NCBI RefSeq assembly: GCF_022846255.1
Contig: NZ_AP025682.1
DNA length: 64,000 bases
Reading direction: 5' to 3' (one strand)
Source of the DNA: Escherichia coli
Lineage (GTDB): Bacteria; Pseudomonadota; Gammaproteobacteria; Enterobacterales; Enterobacteriaceae
This document shows positions 35,101 to 38,100 of this stretch, piece by piece (the first letter of the stretch is position 1; every line of letters starts with the position of its first letter). The position numbers are program-made.

Positions 35101-38100
35101 GACCGATATCGCGGGCAATAGCCAGATCTTCTCCCCAGGTTTGCGCATCCTGACCCGGCAGACCAAACAGCAGGTCACAGACCACCGCGGCACGATCGCG
35201 TTTGACCAGGCTTTCCATAAACGCAATAGCGGTTGGGCCATCCGAGGTGCGGGCCATTTTCTTGCGGATTTTGCTGTTAAACGACTGAATACCAATTGAG
35301 AAGCGGTTTGCTCCTGCATCAAGGCAAGCATCGATTCGCTCAGCGTCAAAATTCAGTACCCGGCCTTCGATAGTGATTTCACAATCAGGGGCCAGTGGCA
35401 GCTTTTCTCGTAATGTGGTGATGATTCTGGCCAAATCGTGTGCTGAAAGCGCGGAAGGCGTACCGCCACCGAAATAGACCGCGTGGATGGGGGCCGACTG
35501 ATGCAATACGCTGTCTGCTTCCATTTCTATTTCACGAATCAGGGCATCGGTATAATGAGCACACGCATCGTCATTAAAACGGTTCTGATAAAAACCACAA
35601 AACGTGCAGTGTGTCGCACAAAAAGGAATGTGTAGGTAAACCAGTCGCTTACGTGGTGATACCGTTTGATTGATCATCTCTTGCCAGGTCTGTGCCAGTT
35701 GCTCTTTGGCAACCGGAATGGCCCCACGAAACGGCATCATGGCGCGCCTGTCTTTAAAGGGCTGATCACCGTCTAAAGCAAAATGTGGCGTGAGATCCAG
35801 GGTGTTATTTGTGTTCATTCGTCTGATTTAAATCCATTTATTGCGGCCAAAGCTGCTGGTGTAAAGACTCAACGACATCAGCAATACGCGGACCCATTCC
35901 CAGAATCAGGTTTTGATCAACGGTGATAATGCGCTGGTTTTTCCATGCGGTAGTGTGGGTAATTCCGGCAATAGAACGTAGCCGATTAATATCGCCATCG
36001 ACCATTTGTGAGGTGACGACAATCACTTCAGGGTTAGCCGCAATCAGCGATTCCGCGCTGTAGCTTTTGTACTGCTGGTGGGTAGCGACGTTTTCTGCTC
36101 CGGCAAGCGAAAGAATGGCGTCCGCGACGCTGCCTTTACCGGCAACCTGCGGCGCACTTCCGCCTGCGGAGAGAATAAACATGGCTTTAACCGGGGCTTT
36201 TTTGGCCGCCACGTTTTGCTGTACTCGCTCCAGGCGTTGGTTGATCTGTGTCACCAGCGCCTCGCCTTGTTCAGGAACCTGTAACGTTTTTGCCAGTTGG
36301 CGAATGTTGGCGTACATCTGCTCAAGGGTGGCTGGTACACGCGGCAGAGTGACGACGTTGACTTTTTGCGCCCGCAGTTGGTCGAGCACAATTTGCGGTC
36401 CTGCATCCTGCCAGGTAATTACGCTATCCGGGCGAAGTGACAAAATGCCTTCGCTGCTGAGTTGTTTCCAGTAACCAATATGCGGCAGTTTGGCGGTTTC
36501 TGGTGGATAAGATGTCGTTTCATCGACACCAACCACGCGTTTGCCAGCGCCCATCGCGTAGATTAGCTCCGTCAGCGATCCTCCTGCGACCACGATACGT
36601 TCGGCAGCCGTTACGCTAAAAGTCCAGCTAAGAGCCAGTAATGCCGTAAACAATTTTTTTCGTTTTACCATGGTCTTCGCGGCAGAGGCCACGGCTGAAA
36701 TACATAACGTCAGTGGGGAAAAAAGAAACGGCCTGGTGATGATCCTTGGCATAATGTGAGAACTCTTATCAAATTGAGAATGATCATGATTATCATTTGA
36801 GTTATATATGAAATACAACCGTCGATTCAATACGCAAGGCGTTACAAGCGTATTTATTTTTGATTTTTATCAAGATGCTTCGTCAGCTAATGTTCTTGTT
36901 ACCGATTAAATTTCAGCGCGGGAAAAAGCTGAGAACCCGGAGATATCGCGGCTTGCAGAGCAAAGAGAAGAGAAAATTATCACTGTTAACGACAACGTTT
37001 TGTGATGAGGTTGTGGGGGGATAGCCATAAACACAGGATGGTTTTCTGGATGCTGGATAGATTTCATAACCCCCTGTTTATTGTGTTAATGGCGGTTAAA
37101 AAAAGCTTGATCATAAAAAATTGATCGATAATAATTCTCATTATCACGTTTGAGTTTAACAAAATATGACATCATGGATAACAAAATCATATCTTTTGTA
37201 AGGGAAAACGCACAGCACTCTTCACTTCAGACGTGGCGTACTACTTTGCCTGACAAAGAGGGCGTGCTTTTGCTGAATTATCAGAAATATTCGGCAATTT
37301 TACGGGATATATACGCTAATAGCTTCCCGTGGTGATATCTAATCATTTGAATTGTAAATAAATTTATTTTTCGCCAGCCACCCCGGTATTAACCCAGGCA
37401 GCCAGCATTTTTTATTTTCCTCATGGAGAATCGCTATGTCACGTCCGCAATTTACCTCGTTGCGTTTGAGTTTGTTGGCTTTGGCTGTTTCTGCCACCTT
37501 GCCAACATTTGCTTTTGCTACTGAAACCATGACCGTTACGGCAACGGGGAATGCACGTAGTTCCTTCGAAGCGCCTATGATGGTCAGCGTTATCGACACT
37601 TCCGCTCCTGAAAATCAAACTGCTACTTCAGCCACTGATTTGCTGCGTCATGTTCCTGGAATTACTCTTGATGGTACCGGACGAACCAACGGTCAGGATG
37701 TAAATATGCGTGGCTATGATCATCGCGGCGTGCTGGTTCTTGTCGATGGTGTTCGCCAGGGAACGGATACCGGACACCTGAATGGTACTTTTCTCGATCC
37801 GGCGCTGATCAAGCGTGTTGAGATTGTTCGCGGACCTTCAGCATTACTGTATGGCAGTGGCGCGCTGGGTGGAGTGATCTCCTACGATACGGTCGATGCA
37901 AAAGATTTATTGCAGGAAGGACAAAGCAGTGGTTTTCGTGTCTTTGGTACTGGCGGCACGGGGGACCATAGCCTGGGATTAGGCGCGAGCGCGTTTGGGC
38001 GAACTGAAAATCTGGATGGTATTGTGGCCTGGTCCAGTCGCGATCGGGGTGATTTACGCCAGAGCAATGGTGAAACCGCGCCGAATGACGAATCCATTAA

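What the first reader, a model, noticed from the sequence alone, without database searches (positions are those of the whole stretch)
36753..36830. chuT start-codon ambiguity: the longest ORF reads through its own Fur operator
The longest frame begins with TTG at 36830 and would translate the Fur-box DNA. In-frame ATGs at 36752 and 36671 give more plausible proteins, the latter starting a classic signal peptide. Automated annotation could easily mis-set this start.
Basis: seen in the sequence. Interest (0 to 1): 0.2.

Follow-up and report, generated by a model that had tools for sequence, protein, structure and literature searches.

The report
chuT leader is a relic receptor signal
The uncertain start of the E. 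coli heme-binding-protein gene chuT exists because Escherichia deleted an older heme-receptor gene and fused that gene's promoter, iron switch, start codon and export signal onto chuT, so the protein now carries two export signals in a row.

Summary
In detail: TTG 36830, ATG 36752 and ATG 36671 are in frame on the minus strand, and a Fur box (36794-36776) lies between the first two.

TTG 36830 is not a start. 5'-RACE on the near-identical Shigella shuT puts the transcript start at window 36794. The TTG is the first half of the likely -35 hexamer.

RefSeq and the experimental literature use ATG 36752 (304 aa). It is present in 1,221 of 2,236 chu-positive complete E. coli genomes and is Ala (GCG/GCA) in the other 1,015, including O157:H7 and the Shigella-type allele.

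New here: in 38 of 38 non-Escherichia relatives, the chuT ortholog directly follows a gene for a roughly 700-730-aa TonB-dependent receptor. Escherichia deleted about 2 kb of that gene in frame. This left its promoter, Fur box, ribosome-binding site, ATG and signal peptide (MPRIITRPFLFSPLTLCISAVASA) fused to chuT. E. albertii and cryptic clades still keep chuT's own ATG (MKKLF). E. coli lost it through a 9-bp deletion.

The start ambiguity itself is ordinary. The relic tandem leader appears to be undescribed and is moderately interesting. Which ATG dominates in this allele remains untested.

The parts
36825..36830 (-). TTGAAT, the likely -35 hexamer. Its first three bases are the TTG 'start' of the 330-aa longest ORF.
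   Evidence: Sequence. It lies 36 nt upstream of the mapped TSS. Wei et al. 2017 describe an active 62-nt promoter fragment as 26 nt plus a 36-nt promoter ending at -1. It is conserved as TTGAAT/TTGAAC upstream of the intact receptor genes. The generic promoter scan did not call it because the -10 ends in C.
36801..36806 (-). TATAAC, the likely -10 hexamer, 18 nt after the -35 and ending 7 nt before the TSS.
   Evidence: Sequence. The geometry is measured from the 5'-RACE TSS.
36794..36794 (-). Transcription start site, inferred from the ortholog.
   Evidence: 5'-RACE in S. dysenteriae places the TSS 42 nt upstream of the start codon. The oligo shuT-RNAT-F in that paper's Table S2 gives the UTR sequence, which equals window 36794..36753 except for one base at 36756.
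36776..36794 (-). Fur box GATAATCATGATCATTCTC, at +1 to +19 of the transcript.
   Evidence: 16 of 19 positions match the consensus (sequence). EMSA, deletion and fur-mutant data exist for the identical Shigella site. The homologous box AATGATAATGATGATCATT lies upstream of the intact receptor genes.
36753..36794 (-). 42-nt 5' UTR carrying the shuT-type RNA thermometer hairpin. AUUCU (36781-36777) pairs with the SD AAGAG(U) (36766-36762).
   Evidence: Predicted hairpin of -3.5 kcal/mol pairing positions 14-18 with 29-33. This matches the U15/U16 mutagenesis and RNase T1 probing in Wei et al.. Rfam has no family for it.
36763..36767 (-). Shine-Dalgarno-like AAGAG serving ATG 36752.
   Evidence: Anti-SD duplex of -2.4 kcal/mol. 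The UTR drives GFP translation in Shigella reporters.
36753..36755 (-). ATT, the mutated original ATG of the ancestral receptor gene.
   Evidence: The aligned codon is ATG in E. albertii, the cryptic clades, L056 and all Citrobacter and Klebsiella receptor genes.
36750..36752 (-). ATG, the RefSeq/PGAP and literature start codon of chuT (304-aa precursor).
   Evidence: PGAP places the CDS start here in 7 of 7 records examined. It is the start codon used by Wei et al..
36663..36752 (-). Relic leader: about 30 codons derived from the 5' end of a deleted TonB-dependent receptor gene (signal peptide MPRIITRPFLFSPLTLCISAVASA plus a few residues).
   Evidence: DNA alignment A3. blastn of window 36814..36671 hits only the receptor-gene 5' ends in 13 loci, with E from 7e-8 to 9e-19. 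The receptor gene sits immediately upstream of the chuT ortholog in 38 of 38 non-Escherichia loci. About 62% amino-acid identity to the C. amalonaticus receptor leader (counted by eye).
36669..36671 (-).
   Evidence: ATG in 1,221 of 2,236 genomes, GCG in 705 and GCA in 310. It is ACG, GCG or ACA in the outgroups. The anti-SD duplex is only -1.5 kcal/mol and badly placed.
36659..36660 (-). Site of the 9-bp deletion specific to E. coli and Shigella that removed chuT's ancestral ATG.
   Evidence: E. coli reads AAA CGA|AAA AAA. L004, L005 and L006 read AAA CGA AGT TCC ATG AAA AAA and equivalents. All 2,236 E. coli genomes align across the site without a gap.
36651..36653 (-). TTG (Leu34), used as the start in 271-aa database annotations. 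It is ATG in strain 5283.
   Evidence: P0006 and P0136. L053 in the alignment.
36603..36671 (-). chuT's native signal peptide (residues 28-50: (M/A)VKRKKLFTALLALSWTFSVTAA), with a predicted cleavage at VTA|AE.
   Evidence: It aligns with the single signal peptides of the 274-279-aa orthologs. The n-h-c and AXA heuristics are met. The crystallised ShuT chain begins AAERIVV.
35838..36602 (-). Mature ChuT heme-binding domain and stop codon. The heme-ligand Tyr codon is at 36473-36471.
   Evidence: PF01497, 121 bits. Near-identical to ShuT 2R7A over 256 residues, E 3e-161. Tyr67 in the structural numbering is Tyr94 in the 304-aa numbering (plus arithmetic).

Best explanation
chuT in Escherichia is a deletion-generated fusion gene. 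In the ancestral operon, still intact in Citrobacter, Kluyvera, Klebsiella, Raoultella, Cedecea, Proteus, Pectobacterium and others, a Fur-regulated promoter drives a TonB-dependent receptor gene of about 700-730 aa, followed directly by T-W-X-Y-U-V.

The Escherichia lineage acquired chuA-chuS divergently upstream and lost about 2 kb of the old receptor gene in frame. The old gene's promoter, Fur box, 5' UTR, Shine-Dalgarno sequence, start codon and roughly 30 leader codons now run straight into chuT. E. albertii and the cryptic clades still have chuT's own ATG (MKKLF) after the relic. E. coli and Shigella removed it with a further 9-bp deletion.

In E. coli, transcription therefore starts at 36794, inside the Fur box and downstream of TTG 36830. 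Translation starts at ATG 36752 under control of the SD-occluding thermometer hairpin. The 304-aa precursor carries two signal-peptide-like segments in tandem.

Inferred steps: the second, native segment directs Sec export and is cleaved at VTA|AE, while the relic behaves as an N-terminal extension. ATG 36671 is a derived Met codon of the chuT-type allele and may add a minor second initiation site.

Shown: homology, synteny, allele counts, and TSS/Fur/thermometer data from the ortholog. Inferred: which ATG dominates in this allele, and how the tandem leader is handled.
For: TSS, Fur site and thermometer: Wei et al. 2017, PMC5458455. Their oligo sequence is identical to window 36794-36741 except for one base.

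Annotation: the PGAP start is at 36752 in 7 of 7 records.

ATG 36671: absent in 1,015 of 2,236 genomes, in O157, in the allele whose mature domain equals the S. dysenteriae crystal sequence and in the outgroups.

Orthologs: 274-279 aa, beginning MKK(L/I) aligned to R31-K33.

Synteny: the receptor gene abuts the T ortholog in 38 of 38 loci. The Citrobacter operon is receptor-T-W-X-Y-U-V with no chuA or chuS.

Homology: promoter, Fur box, SD, ATG and leader align in A3. blastn gives E down to 9e-19, and only at receptor 5' ends.

Junction and frame: the ancestral ATG is retained in L004-L006 and the 9-bp deletion is in E. coli. All length changes at the junction (about 2 kb, 24 nt, 9 nt) preserve the frame, and the first 30 codons have no indels.

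Leader anatomy: two uncharged runs (residues 8-25 and 34-50, mean Kyte-Doolittle 1.62 each), each followed by an AXA site.

Independent hint: SignalP 6.0 reportedly fails to call a signal peptide on annotated EHEC ChuT, although PSORTb calls it periplasmic.
Against: No experiment distinguishes 36752 from 36671 in a chuT-type (Met28) strain. The Shigella reporters fuse the UTR directly to the gfp ATG.

The SD for 36752 is weak (-2.4 kcal/mol, 10-nt spacing).

The relic leader evolves fast (pN/pS 0.4-0.8, versus 0.04-0.08 for the mature domain). In lineage L056 its hydrophobic core is broken by Lys and Arg. So its amino-acid sequence may not matter, or it may not be translated everywhere.

Frame preservation rests on only three indel events, roughly 1 in 27 by chance.

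The TSS is transferred from S. dysenteriae, not measured in this strain.

The structural literature numbers ShuT as if it began at codon 28 (Tyr67).
Confidence: 0.7

Rival explanations
1. In this (Met28, chuT-type) allele the functional start is ATG 36671. This gives a 277-aa precursor with a single classic signal peptide (MVKRKKLFTALLALSWTFSVTAA), and the upstream 81 nt are effectively an extended leader region.
For: It has a textbook n-h-c architecture and AXA site. It lies within 3 codons of where orthologs in other genera start. The relic segment is weakly constrained and degenerate in L056. SignalP does not accept the 304-aa form. The structural numbering (Tyr67; PDB chain equals residues 22-277) presupposes a start at this codon. 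Start-like codons have arisen independently near this spot: GTG at the codon-29 position in L056 and ATG at codon 34 in strain 5283.
Against: The codon is Ala in 45% of chu-positive E. coli genomes and in the experimentally studied Shigella-type allele, where ShuT is nonetheless made and functional. There is no usable SD (GAAG 3 nt from the ATG, -1.5 kcal/mol). An SD plus ATG known to be translation-competent lies 81 nt upstream in the same frame on the same transcript, so ribosomes would read through. No database record uses this start for this protein.
Confidence: 0.2
2. Both ATGs are used in Met28 alleles. The result is a long thermometer-controlled precursor from 36752 and a short precursor from 36671 that bypasses the thermometer, both maturing to the same periplasmic protein.
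For: Both give export-competent-looking leaders ending in the same cleavage site. The A-rich sequence after 36671 and the weak SD at 36752 leave room for internal initiation. The Met28 allele is fixed in a large clade of 1,221 genomes with no intermediates.
Against: There is no direct evidence. Internal initiation without an SD inside a translated ORF is usually inefficient. Met28 could simply be a neutral substitution in a fast-evolving leader.
Confidence: 0.2
3. The longest ORF (TTG 36830, 330 aa) is the real gene and the Fur box is translated.
For: It is the longest open frame, and one database record (P0130, from a MAG) annotates it that way.
Against: The mapped TSS is 36 nt downstream of the TTG, and RT-PCR with upstream primers gave no product. 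There is no SD (+0.6 kcal/mol). The TTG coincides with the -35 hexamer. The added residues (MNRRLYFIYNSNDNHDHSQFDKSSHI) are hydrophilic and read through promoter and operator DNA that is homologous to non-coding sequence upstream of the receptor genes.
Confidence: 0.01
4. The similarity between the ChuT extension and receptor signal peptides is convergence or chance between hydrophobic leaders, not common descent.
For: Signal peptides are compositionally similar and short, and the protein-level match covers only about 26 residues.
Against: The homology is at the DNA level. It extends about 60 nt upstream of the ATG through the SD, Fur box and -10/-35 regions. It is found only at the 5' end of the one gene that sits exactly where the deletion would have been, in 38 of 38 loci. 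Lineage L056 additionally preserves about 30 nt of the receptor's 3' end next to chuT.
Confidence: 0.03

Closest known systems
shuT of Shigella dysenteriae (Wei, Kouse & Murphy 2017, PMC5458455; structures 2R7A/2RG7)
   Same: Same gene. The promoter, 42-nt UTR, Fur box at +1 to +19, SD-occluding thermometer hairpin and ATG are identical to window 36830-36750 apart from one base. The mature domain is about 98-99% identical.
   Different: The Shigella-type allele has Ala (GCA) at codon 28, where this window has ATG. The paper does not discuss alternative starts or the double hydrophobic leader. It calls the Fur box inside the UTR 'unusual' without noting that the whole 5' module is inherited from a receptor gene.
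HmuT/HemT-type heme-binding proteins of Citrobacter, Kluyvera, Klebsiella and Raoultella (274-279 aa)
   Same: Orthologs at 78-85% identity, with the same downstream genes (W, X, Y, U, V) and a homologous native signal peptide and cleavage region.
   Different: They have a single signal peptide starting MKK(L/I). They are translated from an ATG abutting the stop codon of an upstream TonB-dependent receptor gene, with no promoter or Fur box of their own.
MntS, a small protein derived from the SitA signal peptide (Wright et al. 2023, bioRxiv 10.1101/2023.06.02.543501)
   Same: A signal-peptide coding region survives the loss of the rest of its gene in Enterobacteriaceae and stays expressed from the old regulatory region.
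   Different: MntS became a free-standing small protein with a new function. Here the relic is fused in frame to the next gene, and no new function is shown.
Extended signal peptide region (ESPR) of autotransporters and TPS proteins
   Same: The leader layout is the same: charged N1, hydrophobic H1, charged N2, hydrophobic H2, cleavage region C, about 50 residues in all.
   Different: There is no sequence relationship and no Pfam ESPR hit. ChuT is a periplasmic binding protein, not an autotransporter, and the origin is a gene-deletion relic. The resemblance is in architecture only.

Membership tests
ChuT/ShuT heme ABC-transporter periplasmic binding protein (class III PBP) | Peripla_BP_2 (PF01497) domain | tested here: met
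   121 bits, residues 53-281 of the 304-aa form.
ChuT/ShuT heme ABC-transporter periplasmic binding protein (class III PBP) | Near-identity to the crystallised ShuT, including the heme-ligand tyrosine | tested here: met
   2R7A aligns over 256 of 256 residues, E 3e-161. The Tyr codon is at 36473-36471 (Tyr94 in 304-aa numbering, Tyr67 in structural numbering).
ChuT/ShuT heme ABC-transporter periplasmic binding protein (class III PBP) | chu locus context: divergent chuA-chuS, downstream chuW-X-Y-U | tested here: met
   ORF map and RefSeq annotation of the identical region.
Sec-type (SPase I) signal peptide: native segment, residues 28-50 | Positively charged n-region, hydrophobic h-region of 10 or more residues, small residues at -3/-1 | tested here: met
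   KRKK, then a 17-residue uncharged run (mean KD 1.62), then VTA|AE. It aligns with the ortholog signal peptides. These are heuristics only; SignalP is not available here.
Sec-type (SPase I) signal peptide: relic segment, residues 1-25 | The same n-h-c features, and actual use as an export signal | tested here: inconclusive
   The sequence features are met (two Arg, an 18-residue uncharged run, ASA|AKT) and it is homologous to bona fide receptor signal peptides. However, SignalP 6.0 reportedly calls no signal peptide on EHEC ChuT, the core is degenerate in L056, and function cannot be tested here.
Fur-repressed promoter | 19-bp Fur box close to the consensus, overlapping the promoter or TSS | tested here: met
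   16 of 19 positions match, at +1 to +19 (sequence). Fur binding and Fur-dependent repression are shown for the identical Shigella sequence, not for this strain.
shuT-type RNA thermometer | Hairpin in the 5' UTR that pairs with the SD and melts between 25 and 37 C | tested here: met
   The predicted hairpin pairs AUUCU with AGAGU at -3.5 kcal/mol. The sequence is identical to the probed Shigella element except at unpaired position 39. Melting itself is not testable here. Rfam has no family for it.
ESPR (extended signal peptide region) | Conserved ESPR motif / Pfam ESPR domain at the N-terminus | tested here: not met
   Pfam returns only PF01497 at E <= 1. The resemblance is architectural only.
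TonB-dependent receptor (the ancestral upstream gene) | Plug and beta-barrel domains | tested here: not met
   Only the promoter and about 30 leader codons survive in the window. Plug and barrel are present in the intact Citrobacter gene but deleted here.

The most novel reading that the evidence does not exclude
After the receptor deletion left ChuT dependent on a borrowed start codon and a 50-residue tandem leader, different lineages have independently re-created a start codon just ahead of the native signal peptide. These are ATG at codon 28 in the allele carried by 55% of chu-positive E. coli, GTG one codon later in lineage L056, and ATG at codon 34 in strain 5283. If those codons are used, Met28 strains (the window's type) would make ChuT partly independent of the 5'-UTR thermometer and free of the relic leader. 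That would give a heritable difference in the temperature control and export efficiency of heme uptake between chuT-type strains and O157/Shigella-type strains.
Probability: 0.2. Interest if true: 0.55.

Novelty: new variant of a known kind. Interest (0 to 1): 0.4.

Why it matters

Knowing that the chuT 5' module is inherited from a deleted receptor gene explains four oddities at once:
- why the longest ORF runs through an operator;
- why the Fur box sits inside the 5' UTR, which the Shigella paper called unusual;
- why the precursor has two hydrophobic segments that signal-peptide predictors stumble over;
- why the literature carries two residue numberings (Tyr67, and Tyr94 in the 304-aa form).

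It also provides a natural tandem signal peptide, with allelic variants with and without an internal Met, for studying how Sec and signal peptidase handle extended leaders. For annotators, the practical message is to keep ATG 36752, reject the 330-aa and 271-aa forms, and flag Met28 as a possible alternative start.

Tried and rejected
1. I first read the 0 differences in the 81-nt leader between the two E. coli alleles as special constraint. The divergence profile shows only 2-4 differences per 100 nt in the background, so 0 in 81 is not significant. I dropped the claim.

2. A 44-nt megablast query designed to count the ATG allele returned nothing, probably because of low-complexity masking of the A-run. 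A 32-nt blastn query replaced it and worked.

3. The generic promoter/terminator scan found no site in 36600-37000. The promoter assignment therefore rests on the published TSS and on hexamers read by eye.

4. I tested whether the SD-occluding thermometer predates the fusion. Folds of intact Citrobacter and Klebsiella receptor UTRs do not occlude the SD. These short folds are statistically weak, so I only note this.

5. My first junction estimate was receptor codon 34 (CCC) abutting chuT's ATG. I revised it after lineage L056 showed that LPM/SSM/QPM descend from the receptor 3' end (...CTGACGATG) and that the junction lies after the relic Lys.

6. The primary ShuT papers (Eakanunkul 2005, Ho 2007) are not held, so I found no experimental N-terminus. 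The 'Tyr-94' numbering I recalled from memory could not be confirmed in the library. Only Tyr67 is documented.

7. An exact look-up of the S. dysenteriae 1617 271-aa protein found no contig. I used the 304-aa form with the identical mature domain instead.

8. The anti-SD duplex energies are weak for both ATGs and do not decide between them.
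Full report
**Observation.** The window carries the E. 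coli chu heme-uptake locus. chuA (37436-39418) and chuS are on the plus strand. chuT, chuW, chuX, chuY and chuU are on the minus strand. On the minus strand the longest chuT frame starts at TTG 36830 and ends at 35838 (330 aa). In-frame ATGs lie at 36752 and 36671. GATAATCATGATCATTCTC at 36794-36776 matches the Fur consensus at 16 of 19 positions and sits between the TTG and the first ATG.

**What is already known.** RefSeq/PGAP starts chuT/shuT at the equivalent of 36752 (304 aa) in all seven E. coli records I opened. Wei, Kouse and Murphy (2017, PMC5458455) mapped the S. dysenteriae shuT transcript start by 5'-RACE to 42 nt upstream of the start codon. Their other results:
- RT-PCR showed no longer transcript.
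- A functional Fur site lies at +1 to +19 (reporters, fur mutant, EMSA, 5-nt truncation).
- The 42-nt UTR forms an SD-occluding hairpin that acts as an RNA thermometer.
- Their oligonucleotide table gives the UTR and first codons as GATAATCATGATCATTCTCAATTTGATAAGAGTTCTCATATT-ATG-CCA-AGG-ATC, identical to window 36794-36741 except for one base at 36756.

The TSS therefore maps to window 36794, 36 nt downstream of TTG 36830. By the paper's own geometry (a 62-nt active fragment made of 26 nt plus a 36-nt promoter), the TTG is the first half of the -35 hexamer TTGAAT, followed by an 18-nt spacer and TATAAC. The 330-aa ORF is an artefact, although one database record uses it (P0130). The predicted hairpin in the window pairs positions 14-18 with 29-33, covering the AAGAG SD, in line with the published mutagenesis and probing.

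Aligning the window with an O157:H7 genome shows GCA (Ala) where the window has ATG 36671. Representative alleles carry ATG, GCG or GCA. A 32-nt query centred on the codon splits the 2,236 chu-positive complete E. coli genomes as follows:

| Codon at 36671 | Genomes |
|---|---|
| ATG | 1,221 |
| GCG (2 mismatches) | 705 |
| GCA, O157 type (4 mismatches) | 310 |

No intermediate class was seen. The allele whose mature domain is identical to the S. dysenteriae crystal sequence has GCA, and Met28 versions of it do not exist among about 15 billion proteins. So in 45% of genomes, and in the gene that was studied experimentally, ATG 36671 cannot be the start. It also lacks a usable SD.

**Where orthologs start.** Orthologs at 78-85% identity in Citrobacter, Kluyvera, Klebsiella, Raoultella and Dryocola are 274-279 aa. 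E. albertii and two cryptic-clade Escherichia genomes still have that Met. They read ...KR-SSM-KKLF, KP-QPM-KKLF and KR-LPM-KKLF where E. coli reads KR-KKLF. So E. coli and Shigella carry a 9-bp deletion (between 36660 and 36659) that removed the ancestral start codon. All 2,236 E. coli genomes align across this site without a gap.

**Origin of the upstream segment.** In all 38 non-Escherichia loci retrieved, the chuT ortholog is immediately preceded by a TonB-dependent receptor gene of about 700-730 aa, whose stop codon lies 0-3 nt before the T start. In Citrobacter the operon is receptor-T-W-X-Y-U-V, with no chuA or chuS. The receptor is only about 30% identical to ChuA in the plug domain and falls below the heme-receptor family cut-off.

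Its N-terminus (for example MLPRINNRPFFLSALTLCVSGAVSAAST) matches the ChuT extension MPRIITRPFLFSPLTLCISAVASAAKT. The DNA homology extends upstream through the SD region, the Fur box (AATGATAATGATGATCATT) and the -10/-35 region (alignment A3). An unbiased blastn of window 36900-36640 against 335 kb of fetched loci hits only these receptor 5' ends, in 13 loci with E from 7e-8 to 9e-19. The match ends at window 36671.

The outgroup Escherichia have chuA divergently upstream (95-98% identity) and the same fusion. An unidentified lineage from a Logan assembly (L056; ChuA 91%, ChuT 84% identical) shows an earlier stage. Its junction is 24 nt longer and still contains about 30 nt of the receptor's 3' end read in the chuT frame (RRWHTALLNQ versus Citrobacter RCWLCVEFLTM). 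Its ancestral ATG has mutated to CAG, and its relic hydrophobic core is broken by Lys and Arg. The receptor's original ATG is now ATT in E. coli (36755-36753), and the old second codon (TTG, later ATG) serves as the start.

**How it most likely works.**
- Shown: under iron limitation Fur releases the operator at +1 to +19, transcription starts at 36794, and the UTR hairpin limits SD access at low temperature (ortholog data).
- Shown: the UTR can drive translation from an ATG at the 36752 position (gfp fusions).
- Inferred: translation of native chuT starts at 36752 and yields a precursor with N1 (MPRIITR), H1 (relic, residues 8-25), N2 (AKTMVKRKK), H2 (native, residues 34-47) and a VTA|AE cleavage site. 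The two uncharged runs have equal mean hydrophobicity, and each is followed by an AXA motif.
- Inferred: for the binding domain to reach the periplasm, H2 must insert N-in/C-out with KRKK in the cytoplasm. The relic therefore most likely acts as an N-terminal extension rather than as the operative signal.

The mature protein is the same whichever ATG is used, and the crystallised ShuT begins AAERIVV. An EHEC secretome study notes that SignalP 6.0 did not classify ChuT as having a signal peptide, although PSORTb calls it periplasmic. That is what an atypical tandem leader would produce.

**Is the relic translated and constrained?** The evidence is mixed. Its pN/pS is 0.4-0.8, against 0.04-0.08 for the mature domain and 0.1-0.4 for most native signal-peptide comparisons. 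That indicates weak protein-level constraint. On the other hand, the first 30 codons have no indel in six lineages. All three length changes at the junction (about 2 kb, 24 nt, 9 nt) preserve the frame, roughly 1 in 27 by chance. And in Ala28 E. coli and Shigella there is no other ATG upstream of the mature domain. I rate 36752 as the principal start in this window at about 0.65. The rest is split between 36671 as the main start and dual use.

**Comparison with known systems.** The gene is chuT/shuT, and every defining feature tested is met. The leader resembles the N1-H1-N2-H2-C layout of autotransporter ESPRs in architecture, but it is not a member (no Pfam hit). The nearest evolutionary parallel I found is MntS, which derives from the SitA signal peptide. 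My searches for chuT/shuT together with signal peptide, start codon, receptor or Citrobacter found no description of the receptor-relic origin, and the shuT regulation paper does not mention it. The library lacks most subscription-journal papers, so prior description cannot be excluded.

The structural literature numbers the heme ligand Tyr67. That is Tyr94 of the 304-aa form minus 27, and the 256-residue PDB chain equals residues 22-277 of a 277-aa numbering. So a numbering that begins at codon 28 is in circulation alongside the 304-aa RefSeq form.

**Verdict.** The start-codon ambiguity is real but ordinary. TTG 36830 is excluded. ATG 36752 is the supported and conserved start. ATG 36671 is a derived, allele-specific codon. 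The cause of the ambiguity, a receptor-gene deletion that grafted a foreign promoter, operator, UTR, start codon and signal peptide onto chuT, is a well-supported and apparently undescribed piece of locus history. It is of moderate interest.

Noticed in passing
window 36900-37400: The chuA-chuT intergenic region (chuA 5' UTR side) is hypervariable between the chuT-type and O157/shuT-type alleles, at 13-22 differences per 100 nt. The flanking genes show 2-4 per 100 nt. This suggests two old haplotypes or a recombination patch in the chuA leader.
   Followed up: partly
window 37407-37438 (+): Rfam shuA_thermo (RF02597), the known chuA/shuA FourU-type thermometer, matches at 60.1 bits (gathering score 58), right at the chuA start codon.
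   Followed up: yes
window 37127-37145 (read on the minus strand): A second Fur-box-like site, GATAATGAGAATTATTATC (17 of 19 to consensus), lies about 300 nt upstream of chuA. It is presumably the chuA operator.
   Followed up: no
L053 (E. coli strain 5283, NZ_CP103762.1), aligned to window 36653-36651 and 36788: This shuT-type strain has TTG to ATG at the Leu34 codon, creating an in-frame ATG just inside the native signal peptide. It also has a C-to-A change inside the Fur box.
   Followed up: partly
L056 2745-2960 (Logan SRR22859383, unidentified enterobacterium): This lineage has the chuA/chuT layout but a junction 24 nt longer. Its relic hydrophobic core is degenerate (FILSPKRLSVSV), its ancestral ATG has mutated to CAG, and it has a GTG at the position next to E. 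coli codon 28. The gene caller started the protein at that GTG.
   Followed up: partly
L008 306-353, L009 330-377, L014, L015 (5' UTRs of intact receptor genes): The SD-occluding hairpin of the Escherichia chuT UTR is not predicted in the intact Citrobacter and Klebsiella receptor UTRs. The anti-SD UUCUC corresponds to UUUAC there. The thermometer may therefore have arisen after, or along with, the fusion. The folds are short and not statistically distinctive.
   Followed up: partly
window 36906-37067 (-); L057 594-800 (-): A 53-aa ATG ORF lies between the chuA and chuT promoters. A 68-aa gene is called at roughly the same place in one public assembly. There is no family hit on record and PGAP does not annotate it.
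   Followed up: no
L048 10001-17269 (Citrobacter): The intact ancestral-type operon (receptor-T-W-X-Y-U-V) lacks a chuS/hemS-type gene altogether and sits next to a MerR-family regulator gene. Escherichia therefore gained chuS together with chuA.
   Followed up: no
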